IMG/VR virus record: IMGVR_UViG_3300022752_002570
Location: 1-64,000 of that record
Length of the DNA: 64,000 nucleotides
Source of the DNA: a virus
Reading direction: 5' to 3' (one strand)
The translations under genes were made by a program, and so were the position numbers. The notes below the pieces were generated by a model. The model was not told the origin of the DNA and ran no database searches. It saw only the letters and a list, made by a program, of their open reading frames with translations. Every line of letters starts with the position of its first letter. Within the stretch, counting starts at the first letter, position 1. Below, one piece after another: positions 44,958-52,273 of this stretch.

Positions 44958-45971
44958 ATGAACCTTTTTAAAAAGGTAGCCTGTTTTACCGACATACACT
45001 TTGGTCTAAAATCAAATTCTACCACACATCTTAAAGACTGTGAAGAATTTGTAGACTGGTTTATAGACACTGCAAAAAAAGAAGGTTGTGAAACTGCGAT
45101 CTTTCTAGGTGACTGGAGTCATAATCGCAACAGTCTTAATCTAATAACTCTAGATACCAGTCTACGTTGTTTAGAAAAACTTGGACAATCATTTGAACAG
45201 TTCTTTTGGTTTCCTGGTAACCACGATCTATATTATAAGGACAAACGTGATATACATAGCAGTGCGTTCGGACGTCACATACCCGGCGTAACTATAGTAG
45301 ATTCTGTTACCACTCTAGGCAATGTTACATTAGTTCCATGGCTAGTAGGTGATGAATGGCAGGCAATGAAAAATGTAAAAAGCAAATATGTATTTGGACA
45401 TTTTGAATTGCCACTATTTTACATGAACGCAATGGTTCAAATGCCAGACACTGGCGAACTGAGAGCAGAATACTTTAACGGCCCTGATTACGTATTCAGC
45501 GGTCATTTTCATAAAAGACAAAGTAGAGGTATAGTACATTACATAGGTAATACTTTCCCGCATAATTTCTCAGACACATGGGACGATGAAAGAGGTATGA
45601 TGACTCTAGAGTGGAGTTGTAAACCTCAATATCATAACTGGCCTAATGCTCCAAAGTACAGACATATAAAATTATCTGATCTAATTGATCAAAAAGATAC
45701 TATAATGAAAAGTAAAATGTATCTTAAGGTAAATTTAGACATTGATATTAGTTTTGAAGAAGCTAATTTAATCAAAGAAACATTTACCAATGATTATGAT
45801 ATTAGAGAGATCAGTCTTATACAGGATAAAGTTAACCTTGATGGTACCTATGAGGACAATCCTGATACGCAGTTTGAGTCTGTCGATCAAATTGTTTCGG
45901 AACAATTGATTAACCTCGAAGGTGATCAATACGATAAAAAACTCATGCTTGAAATTTACAACAATCTATGA
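44958..45971 (+). CDS. recombination nuclease subunit, gp47/Mre11/SbcD-like
   Basis: Metallophosphoesterase motifs DIHFG, LGDW, GNHD, GHFE, SGHFH. Confidence 0.92.
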   Translation: MNLFKKVACFTDIHFGLKSNSTTHLKDCEEFVDWFIDTAKKEGCETAIFLGDWSHNRNSLNLITLDTSLRCLEKLGQSFEQFFWFPGNHDLYYKDKRDIHSSAFGRHIPGVTIVDSVTTLGNVTLVPWLVGDEWQAMKNVKSKYVFGHFELPLFYMNAMVQMPDTGELRAEYFNGPDYVFSGHFHKRQSRGIVHYIGNTFPHNFSDTWDDERGMMTLEWSCKPQYHNWPNAPKYRHIKLSDLIDQKDTIMKSKMYLKVNLDIDISFEEANLIKETFTNDYDIREISLIQDKVNLDGTYEDNPDTQFESVDQIVSEQLINLEGDQYDKKLMLEIYNNL

Positions 45972-47752
45972 CATTTCGAATAAAAAATCTAACCGTAAAA
46001 AACTTTATGAGCGTGGGTAATCAAACCCAGGCCGTTGATTTTAACAAGGCTAATCTAACTTTAGTGCTAGGATCTAATCTCGACCTAGGTGGTGATGATA
46101 CTGGCAGTAGAAACGGTACTGGTAAAACTACTATCATAAATGCTCTCAGTTATGCACTTTACGGGCAGGCATTAACTAACATTAGAAAAGAAAATCTTAT
46201 CAATAAGATAAATGGTAAGAATATGTTGGTCACTGTTGAATTCGAAAAAAATGGTCTCCAATATAAAATTGAGCGAGGTCGCAAGCCTAACATACTTAAA
46301 TTCTTTGTTAATAATCAAGAAATACAAAACACACATAATGAAGATGAAAGCCAAGGAGATAGCAGAGAGACACAAAAGTATATTGAAGAAATGCTGAACA
46401 TGAGCCATACCATGTTCAAACATCTGCTAGCCCTTAATACCTATACTGAACCTTTTTTGGCCATGAAGGCCGCAGATCAAAGAGAAGTTATTGAACAACT
46501 TCTAGGTATCACAATCTTATCAACCAAGGCAGAAGCACTCAAGAACGTTGTAAAAGAAACTCGAGATTCAATACAACAGGAAACCTTTAAAATAGAAAGC
46601 ATTAAAACTGCTAACGAAAATGTTCAAAAGAGCATTGACAGCCTGCATATCAAAAGTTCTGCTTGGGAAAATAAACATCAAACTGAATTAGAAAATCTAG
46701 GTCGTGCCATTGTTAATCTTGAATCTGTTGATATTGAAGCAGAATTACAGGCACACAAAGATCTAGCCATATGGTTAGAGAATGATCGCAAACTGACTCA
46801 ACTTAGAAAACAAATGGCTACATTAGAAACTGCGGTCATGCAGTCGGCTAAAAGTGTAGACAAATATTCTAAAGACTACAACATGCTGATGGGAAAAACG
46901 TGTCCGTCATGTAAACAAGGTTTACAAGATCATGACCACGAAGACATGATTAAAGAAGTTTCAAAGAATCTAGCAGACGCTAGCGAATATGCAGGCAAGG
47001 TAACATATGAGTACGGTCTAGTGGTCAATGAAGTTGAAGCAATCGTTAAACAGCCTAGGAAACCAGATACCTTTTATGAAACAGAAGCAGAAGCATTAGG
47101 TCATAAAAATAATTTAAGTAATCTAGAAAAGGCTCTTATAGAAAAAGACAACGAAGGAAACCCTTACCAAGAACAGATTGAAGAACTACAACGCACAGCC
47201 ATTCAAGAAATTGATTGGACCAAGGTAAATGAACTAACTAGGTTGCGGGATCATCAAGAGTATCTATACAAATTATTGACAAATAAAGATAGTTTTATTA
47301 GAAAAAAGATTATTGATCAAAATTTAACATATCTTAACAAACGTCTAACATATTATATCGATAAACTTGGCTTGCCTCATAAGGTAGTTTTTCAAAATGA
47401 TCTCAATGTAGAAATCACTCAGTTAGGACAAGAACTAGACTTTGACAATCTAAGTCGAGGTGAACGTAATAGATTAATTTTATCTATGAGTTTTGCATTT
47501 CGAGATGTATGGGAAGGCCTATATCAAAGTATTAATCTATTGTTTATTGATGAACTTGTTGATGCAGGTATGGATAGTGCCGGTGTGGAAGCAGCACTAG
47601 CAGTTCTAAAGAAAATGAGTAGAGAAAGAAATAAAAATATCTATCTAATTAGTCACAAAGATGAACTTGTTGGCCGTGTTAACAATGTTCTTAGGGTGAT
47701 TAAAGAAAACGGCTTTACCAGTTATTCAAATGATCTAGAGTATGTTGACTGA
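45968..47752 (+). CDS. recombination ATPase subunit, gp46/Rad50/SbcC-like
   Basis: KNFMSVG, NGTGKTT, CPSC zinc hook, LSRGE signature, LFIDE, ISHK. Confidence 0.93.
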   Translation: MTFRIKNLTVKNFMSVGNQTQAVDFNKANLTLVLGSNLDLGGDDTGSRNGTGKTTIINALSYALYGQALTNIRKENLINKINGKNMLVTVEFEKNGLQYKIERGRKPNILKFFVNNQEIQNTHNEDESQGDSRETQKYIEEMLNMSHTMFKHLLALNTYTEPFLAMKAADQREVIEQLLGITILSTKAEALKNVVKETRDSIQQETFKIESIKTANENVQKSIDSLHIKSSAWENKHQTELENLGRAIVNLESVDIEAELQAHKDLAIWLENDRKLTQLRKQMATLETAVMQSAKSVDKYSKDYNMLMGKTCPSCKQGLQDHDHEDMIKEVSKNLADASEYAGKVTYEYGLVVNEVEAIVKQPRKPDTFYETEAEALGHKNNLSNLEKALIEKDNEGNPYQEQIEELQRTAIQEIDWTKVNELTRLRDHQEYLYKLLTNKDSFIRKKIIDQNLTYLNKRLTYYIDKLGLPHKVVFQNDLNVEITQLGQELDFDNLSRGERNRLILSMSFAFRDVWEGLYQSINLLFIDELVDAGMDSAGVEAALAVLKKMSRERNKNIYLISHKDELVGRVNNVLRVIKENGFTSYSNDLEYVD

Positions 47753-48047
47753 AGAATTAGAAAAATACAATGAAATGTATCGCAAAATGATTGATCATTT
47801 AGTGACATTGCATAATGCAAATATTACTTTCCAAAAGTTTCAAGGTAGAGATCGTGCTAACGATGTTAAACGACAGTTTAGAGGCATTATGAAATTAAGT
47901 CGCGAATTGATAAAGCAATGCAGCAAAGTCAGTCGAGAGGGTTCTGATCGAAGAAAACTTATAAGTACTCAAAGGAAAGAAGCCAAACGACTAAGGCAAC
48001 AACAAAGACAAAAAAATGTGGCTGTATCAGGGGGAAACAATCAATGA
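47742..48047 (+). CDS. basic helical hypothetical protein
   Basis: 101-aa ORF overlapping both neighbours, K/R/Q-rich. Confidence 0.6.
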   Translation: MLTEELEKYNEMYRKMIDHLVTLHNANITFQKFQGRDRANDVKRQFRGIMKLSRELIKQCSKVSREGSDRRKLISTQRKEAKRLRQQQRQKNVAVSGGNNQ

Positions 48048-48447
48048 ACTACCAGAAACTTGCGTAGGATTCGTGTATATTATAACTAATACAGTAACAG
48101 GCAAGATGTACATAGGCAAAAAACTTAGTAAATTTTCAAAAACAACTTATAAAACTGTTAAATTAAAAAACGGCACTAAGAAAAAGAAACGAATTAAATC
48201 TAAAATATCCTCAGACTGGCAGACATATTACGGCTCAAACGATCATCTCAATCAAGACGTACTAAATTTAGGCACAGATAAATTTGTAAGAGAAATATTA
48301 TACTTTTGTAATTCAAAGGCAGAATGTTCCTATATTGAGGCACGTGAACAATTTACTCGCAAAGTACTAGAATCAGACGAATACTATAACGGACAGATAT
48401 CTGTTCGTGTCCATGGCTCACACATCAAAGGCAAACTAAACGGTTAA
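48016..48447 (+). CDS. stand-alone GIY-YIG endonuclease
   Basis: GFVYIITNTVTGKMYIGKK, YYGS, F.REIL, conserved E (YIEAREQ) and YYN. Lys-rich insertion. Confidence 0.85.
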   Translation: MWLYQGETINELPETCVGFVYIITNTVTGKMYIGKKLSKFSKTTYKTVKLKNGTKKKKRIKSKISSDWQTYYGSNDHLNQDVLNLGTDKFVREILYFCNSKAECSYIEAREQFTRKVLESDEYYNGQISVRVHGSHIKGKLNG

Positions 48448-48448
48448 C

Positions 48449-48860
48449 GGCTAGCGCAGGCTAATATCATGCGCCCTAGACCTGGATCTCAGATCGCAGG
48501 GACGGAATGCTCACCGCCGTAGTGAGAACTCAACCACTACCCGAAAGGATGACGATCACTTAACTGCTGTGATTTGGTTGTTTGAAGTAGAAGGAGCAAA
48601 AAGACGCAGAAGTGATTCTGCACGTTCATATGATGAGGTAGTGTTCGTTATATGAGCCGCCGTTGTAATAAAGCCTGAACGAGTAGGTACCGGACAACCG
48701 CCTACGCTAAACTAGTTCTAACACTATGTGACTATGCTACTCAGATGATGCATACCTTTGCCCGCCCTGGGCAAAGAGTGACCACTTAATCTAGATGATA
48801 CTAAAAGACAAAAAATGCTTCGAGTCTCGTAGACGAAGAAGCAAACGAACGTAGTTCGTT
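48449..48860 (+). ncRNA. candidate large structured non-coding RNA, family unknown
   Basis: No ORF of 60 aa or more in any frame. About 10 consecutive helices, GNRA tetraloops (GAAA, GUGA), a 14-bp helix with 4 G-U pairs that work only on the + strand, and long-range complementarities. Confidence 0.65.
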
Positions 48861-48862
48861 AC

Positions 48863-48868
48863 TAAATA
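48863..48868 (+). promoter_or_regulatory. late promoter box TAAATA
   Basis: Lies upstream of ORF 48890. The same box precedes most structural units. Confidence 0.55.
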
Positions 48869-48889
48869 TTGATTATTCCGGAATAATTT

Positions 48890-50200
48890 ATGCGATTACA
48901 TCAAGCACTAGGTCAACAGACTATCTTTGAAAGTATAGGAGGAACTGATCCCTACTTCAAAACATGGCAACGAGACATACATCCCGTATTATGTGAAGTT
49001 GCTCTAAACCCTGATCAGATAAATCAATTATTCAAATCTATAGAGAAGGGTGGAGGAAGATCTCTTCTAGGTAAAGCCAAAGATGCTATAAGTGGTGCTA
49101 CAAATAAAATTAGTGATGTATGGTTTAATAAGTTTGGAGGAATGTTGCAGAGCAGTGGACCTGTTCAAGCATTTGATCAAAAATTTGAAGAAATTAAATC
49201 CAGTATTGCAGCGAAGAATCCTAAATTGGCCGCAAAGTTAGCCAAATATGGAGAGTTTGCTAAGAACAATCCTAAATTACATAAGTTTTTATTAGCCATT
49301 GGAGGATCTGTAGCCGCTGCTGTAGGTGTTACTGTTGCGGGTGGAGTAGGCGCAGGTGCTCTAGCAGTGGGCACAGGTGCCGGTGTTGCTACTGGTATCA
49401 TTAACATTGCTGATCGTTTATTACAAGGGCAAAAAGCATCAACTGCTATTGGACGTGGAGCCACTACAGGACTAGTAACAGGAATAACTGCTGCTGCCGC
49501 TACTAAAATTCTTAGTGGTGTGGCCAACAGTTTTAAGGCAGAATATGTTAATACAGTTCGAGGTGAGCGATTAATGAACGGAACATTTGACATCAATGGT
49601 CAGTGGACTTTTGTTACTGGCAGACCGGAAGATGTTAGGGCTCTCGGACAAGCCATGGATGCAGAAAACTATCAGTTATTCTACAGTCTTGTAGAAAAAA
49701 TGAGGTCACCTGAATATGTAAAAGGTTTAGAAGCATCTCAAGAAATTATAAAACAGGCCACTCAAAACTATCAATCCACGGCAGGTGTAATTAAAACTCT
49801 AGCACAGGCTGCAACAGCAGCCGCAGGTGGTGCAGCCAGTGCGGCTACAAATCAACAACCTAAAGAAAGTTTATCAGAAAATAAAATTTATGAATTATTT
49901 GGCATAACCGGTAACAAGATAGATGCTAGTAAATTAGAAAAGGCATGGAAGAAGGCAGGAAGTCCTACGGACAGTGATGAGATTGCGAAAATCTTACAGG
50001 GTGCTGGTGTGGATCCTACAATTATTTCACAGGCATTTAAGGAAATAGGAGCACCTACACCTCAAGGCCGTGTAGAACCAACACTAGGAACAGACACCAA
50101 TACAACAGCCCAGCCAATAAATACAAAAGATATTGTAGCCAGGATAAAAAAATTACCTCCTGATCAACAAAAAATCTTAATACAACTATTAAAAGCATAG
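48890..50200 (+). CDS. putative virion internal/ejection protein with Gly/Ala-rich hydrophobic segment
   Basis: 436 aa. FLLAIGGSVAAAVGVTVAGGVGAGALAVGTGAGVATGII glycine zipper. Late box upstream. Confidence 0.55.
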   Translation: MRLHQALGQQTIFESIGGTDPYFKTWQRDIHPVLCEVALNPDQINQLFKSIEKGGGRSLLGKAKDAISGATNKISDVWFNKFGGMLQSSGPVQAFDQKFEEIKSSIAAKNPKLAAKLAKYGEFAKNNPKLHKFLLAIGGSVAAAVGVTVAGGVGAGALAVGTGAGVATGIINIADRLLQGQKASTAIGRGATTGLVTGITAAAATKILSGVANSFKAEYVNTVRGERLMNGTFDINGQWTFVTGRPEDVRALGQAMDAENYQLFYSLVEKMRSPEYVKGLEASQEIIKQATQNYQSTAGVIKTLAQAATAAAGGAASAATNQQPKESLSENKIYELFGITGNKIDASKLEKAWKKAGSPTDSDEIAKILQGAGVDPTIISQAFKEIGAPTPQGRVEPTLGTDTNTTAQPINTKDIVARIKKLPPDQQKILIQLLKA

Positions 50201-51186: not shown

Positions 51187-51419
51187 AAGAACGGCAAACC
51201 AGTCTTTTGGGCAGTTTCTAAATTTTCCTCAATAATTTTACTAAGGATTTCTCTATCTTCCTGGGTAAGTTGGTATGCTTCATTTACAGTAATACTGCCT
51301 CGCATGTACCAACAAATTTTAAATAATTCTCGTTTTATGGCTTTTACATCTTGGTCATAATGATCAACTAGTGTCTTTATTTCCTCAAGATCTAGATATA
51401 AAAGCCTTACACGAAAAAA
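51183..51419 (-). CDS. gp51-like extension ORF in the -1 frame of the gp26-like gene
   Basis: Open frame FFRVRLLYLDLEEIKTLVDHYDQDVKAIKRELFKICWYMRGSITVNEAYQLTQEDREILSKIIEENLETAQKTGLPFF*. It begins at the slippery T-TTT-TTC. The only ATG is internal (51305). Confidence 0.65.
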   Translation of the reverse strand, partial: FFRVRLLYLDLEEIKTLVDHYDQDVKAIKRELFKICWYMRGSITVNEAYQLTQEDREILSKIIEENLETAQKTGLPFF

Positions 51420-52273
51420 GTTGAAGGATCAAAAACTAGAGGAATGGTTATTGTGTCTTGAGTATAACCTTGCATTTTGATATTTTCAGGAGTATCGATA
51501 GTTATAGGTTTAATTAGATTGTTATCTTTTAGTTTATCCAAATGATTCTGTATAATATTGAACATGTCCTTGTCAATGTTATCAATAAATTCTCTTATGT
51601 GTACTATATTTTCTGTACTGCCCGTAGGTGAGTCTATTCTAAATACACTTTCTTTTACAACACCAATAGTGACATCAGTAAGTTTACTAAATGTCTTTTG
51701 AAACATTTCTAATTTTTGCTCTTGACTTAGGCTTTCATCATTGGCCAAATTAAGAATCTTTTGTGTTTCAAAACTTTTTATACTGCTATCACTAATCTGT
51801 TTATAGTTAAGCGGTTTCACATAGACTGTTAAATCATCATTTATTGGAATCACTGGATCCCAATCTATCGTTTGGTATAGATTGTCCATTACAAGACGTA
51901 GATCAACTTCATATTCTAAATTAATATCTCCGGGTAGATTCAACGGAGTACTCATCTTTTCACCGTAGGTAGCAATTCTGATAGCAATTAGAATTGCATC
52001 AAGATCTATACTTGGCGTCATCCATGCATTTTTAATATTCGGCATACAATTTTGTATTGCATCTACTACTGCTTGCCCGTTCATAATAGCGTCTGGAACT
52101 TTTAGCAAGAGTTCATCCTTAGCAGTCATAGAAAAAACAGGATATTCATTGTTTTCTGATTTTTCCAAACTACCTGGAGGCCAGTATTCTCCATTACTGG
52201 GTAACCTAATATAAATCTTTGGTTGCCTCATATAATTCATTAAAGGGTTTTGATTTTTTGGGGATGATATCAC
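51407..52273 (-). CDS. baseplate hub assembly chaperone, T4 gp26-like
   Basis: YIRLPSNG, MTAKDELLL, DLDAILIAIRIATYGE, C-terminal IPLVFDPSTFF. GTG start with GGAG SD. Confidence 0.8.
   Translation of the reverse strand: MISSPKNQNPLMNYMRQPKIYIRLPSNGEYWPPGSLEKSENNEYPVFSMTAKDELLLKVPDAIMNGQAVVDAIQNCMPNIKNAWMTPSIDLDAILIAIRIATYGEKMSTPLNLPGDINLEYEVDLRLVMDNLYQTIDWDPVIPINDDLTVYVKPLNYKQISDSSIKSFETQKILNLANDESLSQEQKLEMFQKTFSKLTDVTIGVVKESVFRIDSPTGSTENIVHIREFIDNIDKDMFNIIQNHLDKLKDNNLIKPITIDTPENIKMQGYTQDTITIPLVFDPSTFFV

What the first reader, a model, noticed from the sequence alone, without database searches (positions are those of the whole stretch)
48728..48799. Twin GTGAC-N10-AGATGAT units around a hairpin: guide-RNA-like two-fold architecture
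Seen in sequence: GTGAC-TATGCTACTC-AGATGAT (48728-49) and GTGAC-CACTTAATCT-AGATGAT (48778-99) have identical flanks, exactly 10 unrelated nt inside and a 50-nt period. They sit on either side of the CTTTGCCC/GGGCAAAG hairpin, so the two 10-mers would face each other in a symmetric internal loop bounded by UGA-containing boxes. Established: conserved UGA boxes flanking two short variable segments describe box C/D guides, TIGR tigRNAs and bridge-RNA loops. Inference: the two 10-mers could be programmable guide segments or binding sites for a dimeric protein. No Nop-domain protein is visible in this window.
Basis: partly seen in the sequence, partly recalled or inferred. Interest (0 to 1): 0.75.

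Follow-up and report, generated by a model that had tools for sequence, protein, structure and literature searches.

The report
Twin matched words in phage RNA
Two copies of one short word in the tail of a large folded RNA of uncultured freshwater T4-like phages always change together, which points to one unknown reader (or contact between the copies) and not to two freely programmable guides.

Summary
GTGAC-N10-AGATGAT stands at 48728-49 and 48778-99 around a true hairpin.

The units are not a small guide RNA. They lie in the uncatalogued 3' domain of a roughly 410-nt structured phage RNA (48449 to about 48862). Its first third is the orphan Rfam motif Polynucleobacter-1 (117.9 bits).

I collected 189 distinct homologues by two independent routes. 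In them the variable letters of the second box are the same in both units:
- 188 of 189, 189 of 189 and 189 of 189 rows at the three positions.
- 21, 10 and 9 phylogenetically independent changes, with none discordant.

GTGAC variants and the letters before A-YYY also tend to match. The fixed differences between the units (CUC against UCU, G against A) are all transitions.

No other column of the RNA covaries with these letters. Neither does the neighbouring GIY-YIG gene. No complementary site stands out in the flanks or in two complete phage genomes. Nop, L7Ae, fibrillarin and IS110 genes are absent.

The N10 is not free: its last four letters are fixed and the rest follows clades. The 50-nt period is not kept (47-60).

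Best reading: a matched pair of docking sites for one unknown partner. Function is unknown. Earlier agents of this scan reported the same twin-box RNA on other DNA, and my tests agree with them.

The parts
48016..48447 (+). 143-aa ORF holding a GIY-YIG catalytic domain only (SegE_GIY-YIG). It is a fixed upstream neighbour of the RNA.
   Evidence: Pfam PF19835, 110.4 bits. A homologue lies directly upstream of the RNA in 89 of 90 pattern-found loci. The family occurs in 452 phage records, also without the RNA, for example Melnitz. It shows no co-variation with the box letters.
48449..48862 (+). Whole structured non-coding RNA, about 410 nt. The ends are inferred from conservation and are not mapped.
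   Evidence: A profile of the whole gap matches 179 of 186 loci, nearly all full length. Covariation supports its helices. MFE z-score of the 3' part is -3.28.
48449..48583 (+). 5' domain, equal to the Polynucleobacter-1 RNA motif (RF01718).
   Evidence: cmscan 117.9 bits against gathering score 37, model positions 1-141. The motif is present in 17 of 20 related loci scanned.
48638..48644 (+). 5' strand of the long-range helix whose 3' strand ends directly at unit 1.
   Evidence: Pairs with 48721-48727: 7 pairs, 6 with compensatory changes. Standard pairs in 153-189 of 189 rows.
48721..48727 (+). 3' strand of that long-range helix, immediately before unit 1.
48728..48749 (+). Unit 1: GUGAC (48728-32), clade-variable hexamer (48733-38), invariant ACUC (48739-42), box N1 N2 A U R A U (48743-49).
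48756..48776 (+). Hairpin between the units (8-bp stem, 5-nt loop).
48778..48799 (+). Unit 2: GUGAC (48778-82), clade-variable hexamer (48783-88), invariant AUCU (48789-92), box (48793-99) identical to that of unit 1.
48816..48842 (+). Conserved hairpin of the 3' end module.
48844..48860 (+). Terminal hairpin (7 pairs, 6 with compensatory changes).
48864..48869 (+). TAAATA, in most homologues TATAAATA. It matches the T4 late-promoter word (recalled). It would start the downstream late transcript after the RNA.
   Evidence: Present behind the terminal hairpin in most of the 135 rows printed. The promoter identity is inferred.
48890..50200 (+). 436-aa ORF of unknown function, downstream. It is not a constant neighbour of the RNA.
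   Evidence: Downstream of the RNA in only 11 of 91 pattern-found loci. No PHROG hit. Only a sub-threshold DUF3040 hit in Pfam.

Best explanation
The two units are two copies of one 22-nt recognition element. They lie in the 3' domain of a large structured phage RNA, a Polynucleobacter-1 5' domain with a phage-specific extension. Each copy starts right behind the 3' strand of a helix: the long-range helix 48638-44:48721-27 for unit 1 and the hairpin 48756-76 for unit 2. So the fold presents the two copies in equivalent settings. Selection keeps the copies the same: when a letter of the box changes, it changes in both. I read them as a matched pair of docking sites, read by one partner that has two equivalent reading surfaces or that binds twice. 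The partner lies outside the RNA. It is not encoded next door, and it is not a perfectly complementary phage sequence. Shown: the RNA family, its helices, the lockstep change, and the absence of an internal Watson-Crick partner. Inferred: that the RNA is transcribed, that the units are single-stranded and exposed, and that there is a partner at all. Its nature, protein or host RNA, is unknown.
For: Identity of the two boxes, in 189 rows from two independent ways of collecting (unit-2 pattern; 5'-domain pattern):
- N1: 188 of 189.
- N2: 189 of 189.
- R: 189 of 189.
- Last letter: 187 of 189.
- In the 54 rows collected through the 5' domain alone: 53, 54, 54 and 52 of 54.

Phylogenetically independent contrasts on supported branches of a tree built without the unit columns:
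- N1: 21 contrasts; the other unit goes the same way in 20.8 on average and never the other way (p about 1e-6).
- N2: 10 of 10.
- R: 9 of 9.
- A known Watson-Crick pair used as control: 13 of 13.
- An unrelated column pair: 2.3 the same way, 1.6 the other way, 17.1 unchanged.

No other column reaches a mutual information above 0.36 with these letters, against 0.74-1.00 for the twin position.

GTGAC variants also tend to match (GUGGY/GUGGC, AUGAC/AUGAC).

A distant relative on a MAG contig uses another word, GCAAAAT, again in both units behind ACTC and ATCT.

Both units follow a covariation-supported helix.
Against: - No partner was found.
- The box letters do not co-vary with the neighbouring nuclease. 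N1 ranks 267 of 281 RNA columns for its best protein column.
- Complements of a locus's own box type are no commoner in its flanks than those of other types: 0.068 against 0.090 per locus, 191 loci, 3.25 Mb.
- In three phage records, two of them complete, exact complements occur as often as a reversed control. The extra sites lie in unrelated ORFs.
- If the partner paired through Watson-Crick and wobble pairs, mixed A/G states should be common. Only 1 of 189 is seen (L259).
- If it were a protein, at least 21 switches of N1 would require an odd history of specificity changes.
- There are no expression data (see Tried and rejected).
Confidence: 0.45

Rival explanations
1. The two units touch each other. 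They run in the same direction and would zip into a short two-fold symmetric, parallel-stranded stretch of like-with-like pairs (A with A, G with G, U with U, C with U). Identity would then be the direct analogue of Watson-Crick covariation.
For: Identity is found in register at many positions of the 22-nt unit, not only at one centre. An antiparallel contact cannot give that. Mixed states are nearly absent (1 of 189), as expected if the two letters contact each other. No third party is needed, which fits the fruitless searches for one. Every fixed difference between the units keeps purine opposite purine and pyrimidine opposite pyrimidine: C/U, U/C, C/U and G/A.
Against: I know of no natural RNA with a long parallel homo-paired stretch (recalled, not searched). 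N2 goes from G/G to C/C and the last letter from U/U to A/A or G/G, which changes pair width inside the supposed duplex. Position 48750/48800 is G/A in 172 of 189 rows although A/G is never seen at N1. Almost any pair can be rationalised, so sequence data alone test this weakly. RNAalifold prefers an ordinary antiparallel 6-pair helix between 48741-46 and 48789-95. It is complete in 157 of 189 rows but carries no informative covariation.
Confidence: 0.17
2. One reading: a guide RNA of the box C/D, tigRNA or bridge-RNA kind. The two N10 segments would be programmable guides held by conserved boxes and a dedicated protein.
For: Two-fold layout around a hairpin. UGA-containing words that loosely recall the C and D boxes (recalled motifs). 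All fixed differences between the units are transitions, which one common complementary strand could tolerate through G-U pairs.
Against: - The N10 is partly invariant, follows clades, and in one clade pairs internally.
- There are only two units at one syntenic place, not an array.
- No Nop, L7Ae, fibrillarin or IS110 gene was found.
- Rfam gives no C/D match at the site.
- No complementary targets stand out in the flanks or in complete genomes.
- The nuclease next door also occurs without the RNA and does not co-vary with it.
Confidence: 0.05
3. An identity-dependent re-pairing process. One pairing partner leaves the first word and lands on the second. That partner could be a nascent copy, or a tRNA as in the 50-nt translational bypass of T4 gene 60 (recalled). 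The box reads as an NNA triplet followed by UAA or UGA.
For: Such processes demand identical words without any third co-evolving gene. The box triplets are AGA, GGA, GAA or GCA, followed by URA in 189 of 189 rows. A hairpin lies between the words. The spacing is 50 nt in this window.
Against: - There is no conserved reading frame into unit 1. The variable hexamer is 6 to 11 nt long and the linker before the hairpin also varies in length, neither in steps of three, and with a 7-nt insert the frame meets a stop (by reading).
- The spacing is 47-60 nt.
- Identity reaches GTGAC and the letters before A-YYY, which a triplet reader does not explain.
- The CUC/UCU difference would mismatch a nascent copy.
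- No reverse transcriptase was noticed.
- Contigs show no form lacking the interval (weak).
Confidence: 0.05
4. The repeats act as DNA. They would be two binding sites for a phage DNA-binding protein, such as iterons of an origin or regulatory sites, that happen to lie inside an RNA gene.
For: Direct repeats that are alike within a replicon and differ between replicons are typical of iterons (established knowledge). The locus lies near baseplate genes, as T4 oriE does (recalled).
Against: The surrounding 410 nt show dense compensatory base-pair changes of an RNA, and the units are framed by RNA helices. The spacing varies from 47 to 60 bp, which would break helical phasing. Frequent A/G switches are unexpected for protein sites.
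Confidence: 0.05

Closest known systems
Polynucleobacter-1 RNA motif (Rfam RF01718; Weinberg et al. 2010, PMC2864571; I saw the table row in the main text only)
   Same: The first 135 nt of this RNA match the model end to end (117.9 bits). The paper's table lists the motif for Burkholderiales and fresh water/estuary with unknown function, which fits the freshwater runs that hold this window.
   Different: The catalogued motif is 141 positions long. Here it is only the 5' third of an RNA of about 410 nt whose 3' two thirds, twin units included, are in no Rfam family. In Limnohabitans sp. Bal53 the motif stands without a recognisable twin domain.
Archaeal box C/D guide RNAs
   Same: Two-fold layout with short UGA-containing words on both sides of a central loop or hairpin. 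Two equivalent sites imply a two-fold partner.
   Different: The order of the words is reversed. No K-turn can be drawn with the adjacent helices, because a 4-13-nt variable linker separates the box from the hairpin. There is no L7Ae, Nop or fibrillarin. The segments between the words are not free guides. There is no Rfam match.
Large ornate phage-associated RNAs such as GOLLD and ROOL (recalled; not searched in the paper library)
   Same: Several hundred nucleotides long, many helices and pseudoknots, phage-borne, function unknown.
   Different: No sequence or model similarity: Rfam holds these families and none matched. No tRNA genes are nearby: 0 in the window and 0 in 60 loci. Twin identical words are not a described feature of those RNAs, as far as I recall.
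Regulatory or sponge RNAs with duplicated seed motifs (recalled class)
   Same: Two identical single-stranded words in one RNA, kept alike because both meet the same target.
   Different: No target was found. The words change often, whereas seeds of known examples are conserved.
Identity-dependent re-pairing signals (T4 gene 60 bypass, coronavirus leader/body junction words; recalled)
   Same: Two direct copies of a word that must be identical and that differ between lineages.
   Different: No reading frame, variable spacing, and no joined form seen.

Membership tests
Polynucleobacter-1 RNA (RF01718) | Score at or above Rfam's gathering score over the whole model | tested here: met
   48449-48583, 117.9 bits against 37, model 1-141. 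This holds for the 5' domain only; the twin units lie outside the model.
Box C/D guide RNA | Match to a C/D covariance model, or C and D boxes in the order C..D'..C'..D | tested here: not met
   The permissive Rfam scan of 48400-48950 gives only sR18 at 13 bits (cut-off 45), at 48520-48569 and not at the units. By reading, the D-like word precedes the C-like word in both units.
Box C/D guide RNA | L7Ae, Nop5 and fibrillarin partners available | tested here: not met
   PF01248, PF01798 and PF01269: 0 matches in the 81.9-kb contig. PF01798 and PF01248: 0 of 5 other phage records with this RNA, two of them 99-100% complete. Host genes could not be tested.
Box C/D guide RNA | Guide segments free to vary and complementary to a target | tested here: not met
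   Four of ten letters are invariant and the rest follow clades. No target stands out.
TIGR-Tas tigRNA | Array of many units next to a Nop-domain Tas protein, with variable spacer pairs (features recalled) | tested here: not met
   Exactly two units in every homologue read. No Nop domain. The segments are conserved within clades.
IS110-type bridge RNA | Adjacent IS110 (DEDD) recombinase and loops matching target and element ends | tested here: not met
   PF01548: 0 matches in the contig. The locus is syntenic in T4-like phages behind one conserved gene and is not a mobile element.
Kink-turn | Helix, 3-nt bulge, tandem G-A pairs with a GA directly before the partner strand of the same helix (recalled) | tested here: inconclusive
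   Both units read helix-NGU-GA-C, as a bulged strand would. The required GA on the other strand is missing next to the hairpin and is not conserved next to the long-range helix (by reading).
Translational bypass element (T4 gene 60 type) | Open reading frame entering the first word and leaving the second; fixed gap | tested here: not met
   There is no conserved frame, because the inserts are not multiples of three. The gap is 47-60 nt.
CRISPR mini-array | Identical repeats around a variable spacer | tested here: not met
   The interval is a conserved hairpin, not a spacer. The units differ at fixed positions.

The most novel reading that the evidence does not exclude
The two units pair with each other in parallel, like with like, and form a two-fold symmetric parallel-stranded element inside a natural RNA. 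The lockstep identity would then be the covariation signature of a kind of RNA helix not yet known in biology.
Probability: 0.12. Interest if true: 0.9.

Novelty: new variant of a known kind. Interest (0 to 1): 0.62.

Why it matters
Comparative RNA analysis rests on complementary covariation. Here two single-stranded words show the opposite rule, sameness, and hold it through dozens of independent changes.

Whatever enforces this rule is not predicted by current RNA annotation. It could be a two-headed reader or a direct like-with-like contact.

The finding also shows that an orphan motif catalogued in 2010 is, in phages, only the head of a three-times larger RNA.

The finding gives experimenters a sharp handle. 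Changing one box, or both, makes a clean genetic test, and the RNA is a good size for probing, pull-down and cryo-EM.

Tried and rejected
1. Internal partner. I computed mutual information of each box letter with every alignment column, a search for wobble complements within 1.5 kb, and RNAduplex scans of both halves of both units against the rest of each RNA.
- The only recurrent hit is the U/G-rich tail of the 5' domain (48577-83). It can pair with any purine-rich word and does not follow box type.
- GTGAC can pair with GUCRC at 48493-97, but that strand sits in a covariation-supported helix.

2. Pairing between the units. RNAduplex gives weak hybrids (-3 to -10.7 kcal/mol) in inconsistent registers. 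The N6 segments pair (UGUUCR/UGAACR) in one clade only.

4. Targets in trans.
- Window scan for the complement: 24 hits with up to 1 mismatch, against 12.5 expected. The exact hits are the units themselves plus one more.
- Hybrid scan of the whole 81.9-kb contig: the best sites hold CAUCUGGGU twice, about what chance gives.
- Flanks of 191 loci: no excess.
- Three long records: counts equal the control, and the extra sites lie in unrelated ORFs.

5. Nuclease as partner. There is no co-variation, and the protein family is widespread without the RNA. phmmer against PDB sequences found nothing, so my thought that it is a T4 endonuclease II relative stays untested.

6. tRNA link. There are no tRNA genes in the window or in 60 loci. 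I did not test box triplets against phage tRNA sets.

7. Known phages. blastn (distant mode) of the gap and megablast of 10 kb against 50,697 phage records found no match.

8. Sequencing runs. No RNA holder is listed. All four runs laid are DNA contigs. No contig joins unit 1 to unit 2, and the only difference inside the units is 48738 T>A. Contigs cannot show rare forms.

9. The scan of genome contigs with the 5'-domain pattern was too loose for 596 Gb. Of the 120 stretches returned, 5 are real.

10. Literature.
- The terms 'Polynucleobacter-1' (1 paper) and 'RF01718' (3 papers, two of them genome reports) give only Weinberg 2010, where I saw the table row.
- A search for structured RNA / T4-like / freshwater / noncoding listed 15 of 49 papers.
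- In PMC10690425 I saw only passages found by terms, none on this RNA.
- I found no printed description of the 3' domain in these searches.

11. The parsimony count of box changes on the first tree (35 or more) rests on weakly resolved branches. I rely on the independent contrasts instead. The nearest rows with different boxes are 87% alike outside the units.

Full report
WHAT IS THERE. The window is part of an 81,861-base IMG/VR virus record that CheckV rates 23% complete. It belongs to a T4-like phage. SbcD- and SbcC-like genes (gp47 and gp46) lie at 44958-47752 and a baseplate hub gene at 51407-52273. Related records with the same RNA reach 345-355 kb at 99-100% completeness.

The finding lies in the 442-nt gene-free gap 48448-48889. 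Upstream is a 143-aa ORF that holds only a GIY-YIG catalytic domain (PF19835). Downstream is a 436-aa ORF of unknown function.

THE UNITS BELONG TO A LARGE RNA. Rfam places Polynucleobacter-1 (RF01718) at 48449-48583, with 117.9 bits against a gathering score of 37. Nothing else in Rfam matches the gap.

Relatives were collected in two ways:
- Relatives of the downstream protein gave 66 loci.
- The pattern AAGTGTGAC-N6-ATCT-NN-AT-R-AT gave at least 120 more stretches.

A profile of the whole gap matches 179 of 186 loci, nearly all from its first to about its last position. So the catalogued motif is the 5' third of an RNA of roughly 400-500 nt.

Compensatory changes support many helices. Among them:
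- the long-range helix 48638-44:48721-27 (7 pairs, 6 with compensatory changes);
- 48662-66:48694-98;
- 48677-80:48715-18, which crosses the previous helix;
- the hairpin 48756-63:48769-76;
- the terminal hairpin 48844-50:48854-60.

Behind the terminal hairpin most homologues carry TATAAATA. I recall this as the T4 late-promoter word. It is followed by a ribosome-binding site and differing genes. I therefore infer that the RNA is a gene of its own, or the 3' end of the nuclease transcript, and not the leader of the downstream late gene.

The nuclease gene is the upstream neighbour in 89 of 90 pattern-found loci. The downstream protein recurs in only 11 of 91. The nuclease family occurs in 452 phage records. 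In phage Melnitz only 148 nt follow the gene.

In cellular genome records the motif also occurs. I found it in Limnohabitans sp. Bal53 and in three MAG contigs. The Limnohabitans copy has no recognisable twin domain.

ANATOMY OF A UNIT. In unit coordinates:
- Positions 1-5 are GUGAC.
- Positions 6-11 are a hexamer that follows clades. It is 6 to 11 nt long in unit 1 and usually 6 in unit 2.
- Position 12 is A.
- Positions 13-15 are CUC in unit 1 and UCU in unit 2, in 188-189 of 189 rows.
- Positions 16-22 are the box N1 N2 A U R A U.
- Position 23 is G in unit 1 and A in unit 2, in 172 of 189 rows.

Unit 1 starts directly behind the long-range helix. Unit 2 starts one letter behind the hairpin.

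THE CENTRAL RESULT: SAMENESS. In 135 distinct RNAs the three variable box letters were identical in both units in 135 of 135 rows. No other column reached a mutual information above 0.36.

The second collecting pattern had fixed parts of unit 2. To remove that bias I collected again through the 5' domain alone. This gave 81 new loci, 62 near full length and 55 distinct; 54 of the 55 rows carry both units in the alignment.

In the merged 189 rows the two units agree as follows:
- N1: 188 of 189 (G/G 99, A/A 89).
- N2: 189 of 189 (G/G 160, A/A 15, C/C 14).
- R: 189 of 189 (A/A 130, G/G 59).
- Last box letter: 187 of 189 (U/U 166, A/A 16, G/G 4; the other two are alignment gaps).
- The letter before A-YYY: 147 of 189.

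The new rows brought box forms that the first pattern could not catch: a last letter of A or G, and GUGGY or AUGAC in place of GUGAC. These again mostly occur in both units.

I built a tree without the unit columns and counted phylogenetically independent contrasts on supported branches:
- N1 differs in 21 contrasts. The other unit follows in 20.8 on average and never goes the other way (sign test about 1e-6).
- N2 follows in 10 of 10 (p 0.002).
- R follows in 9 of 9 (p 0.004).
- The last letter follows in 4 of 4, which is too few for a test.
- A true Watson-Crick pair behaves the same way (13 of 13).
- An unrelated column pair does not (2.3 the same way, 1.6 the other way, 17.1 unchanged).

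One row, L259, is mixed (G in unit 1, A in unit 2). A distant relative on a contig binned with Nitrospira lenta has ACTC-A-GCAAAAT and ATCT-T-GCAAAAT. That is another word, again present twice.

WHAT IT IS NOT.
- The N10 segments are not free guides.
- The 50-nt period is not kept.
- The partner proteins of box C/D RNAs and tigRNAs are absent: Nop, L7Ae and fibrillarin from the contig, and Nop and L7Ae also from five further phage records with this RNA, two of them complete.
- An IS110 recombinase, the partner of bridge RNAs, is absent from the contig; I did not search the five further records for it.
- The nuclease does not co-vary with the boxes. N1 ranks 267 of 281 columns.
- No complementary site stands out in the window, the contig, the flanks of 191 loci or three long records.
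- No reading frame is conserved through the units.

HOW IT MAY WORK. Several in-register positions are identical, so an ordinary antiparallel contact between the units is ruled out as the cause. Such a contact would couple mirror positions.

Gene conversion is unlikely. The identical tracts are interrupted by three letters that always differ.

Three kinds of explanation remain.

(i) One external reader meets both copies. This is the plainest reading and the one I commit to, at 0.45. All fixed differences between the copies are transitions. That is what one complementary strand with G or U opposite them would tolerate, and it speaks for a nucleic-acid reader over a protein. Against it, wobble-tolerant pairing should allow mixed A/G states, and these are almost never seen.

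(ii) The copies contact each other in parallel, like with like (0.17 as a rival; 0.12 in its strict form as the novel case). This explains the near absence of mixed states and the lack of any third party. But it would be without precedent, and the purine-to-pyrimidine switches at N2 strain it.

(iii) An identity-dependent re-pairing process is possible. The box reads as an NNA triplet (AGA, GGA, GAA, GCA) plus UAA or UGA, which recalls the matched take-off and landing codons of T4 gene 60. There is no frame, however, and the spacing varies (0.05).

The remainder is for things I have not thought of.

RNAalifold draws a 6-pair helix between 48741-46 and 48789-95. It is complete in 157 of 189 rows. 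It may exist, but it carries no compensatory change and does not explain the sameness of N1.

RELATION TO EARLIER NOTES OF THIS SCAN. After my own analysis I looked up earlier notes. Other agents reported the same RNA on other DNA: a full-length, twin-box Polynucleobacter-1 phage RNA with one 7-letter word twice and an unknown reader. They also saw the nuclease as a neighbour and not a partner. My tests agree.

This report adds:
- the second, independent way of collecting;
- the independent-contrast counts;
- the extension of sameness beyond the 7-letter box;
- the transitions-only rule for the fixed differences;
- the negative searches in complete genomes;
- the divergent GCAAAAT relative.

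LIMITS.
- There is no expression evidence.
- The RNA ends are inferred.
- Hosts are unknown.
- Alignments of unit 1's variable hexamer are uncertain.
- The trees rest on about 400 columns.

Noticed in passing
window 48871-48887: A perfect palindrome ATTATTCC/GGAATAAT lies between the late-promoter-like word and the start codon of the 436-aa gene and covers its likely ribosome-binding GGA (I9). TTCCGGAATAAT-like words recur in the same place in many loci with this gene. It may be a translational operator or a hairpin that hides the binding site.
   Followed up: no
window 48016-48447: The 143-aa GIY-YIG domain-only protein is labelled 'NAD synthetase' in PHROG 447 and in many phage records, while Pfam sees a SegE-type GIY-YIG domain. 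The name looks like a propagated misannotation. In Melnitz the gene follows the ribonucleotide reductase genes.
   Followed up: partly
L382 3772-3909 (Limnohabitans sp. Bal53); L299, L315, L330: The Polynucleobacter-1 motif also occurs in cellular genome records (94-98 bits). In Limnohabitans no twin domain follows. The phage RNA therefore looks like a host-type 5' module joined to a phage-type extension, or the reverse.
   Followed up: partly
L330 4824-5310 (contig binned as Nitrospira lenta): A divergent long form: Polynucleobacter-1, then about 190 nt, then twin units with the word GCAAAAT behind ACTC and ATCT around a hairpin, then the usual two terminal hairpins. The contig may be a phage piece binned with a MAG.
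   Followed up: partly
L259 (IMG/VR locus), units at about 289-311 and 342-363 of the extracted RNA: This is the only row of 189 with unlike boxes (GGATAAT in unit 1, AGATAAT in unit 2). It could be a natural intermediate or an assembly chimera of two strains.
   Followed up: no
window 48738: Contigs of close relatives in four freshwater or lake DNA runs read A here instead of T. That makes the letter before ACUC equal to its counterpart 48788 in unit 2. The window's clade is the main exception to sameness at this position (U/A in 39 of 189 rows).
   Followed up: partly
window 47742-48047 and 48016-48447: The 101-aa ORF overlaps the start of the nuclease gene by 32 bases, and gp46 overlaps the 101-aa ORF. 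This tight packing contrasts with the 442-nt gap behind the nuclease gene.
   Followed up: no
window 48657-48661 and 48699-48703: A second pair of identical words, CCGCC, flanks the helix GUUGU/ACAAC (48662-66:48694-98). Both are nearly invariant, so covariation says nothing about them.
   Followed up: no
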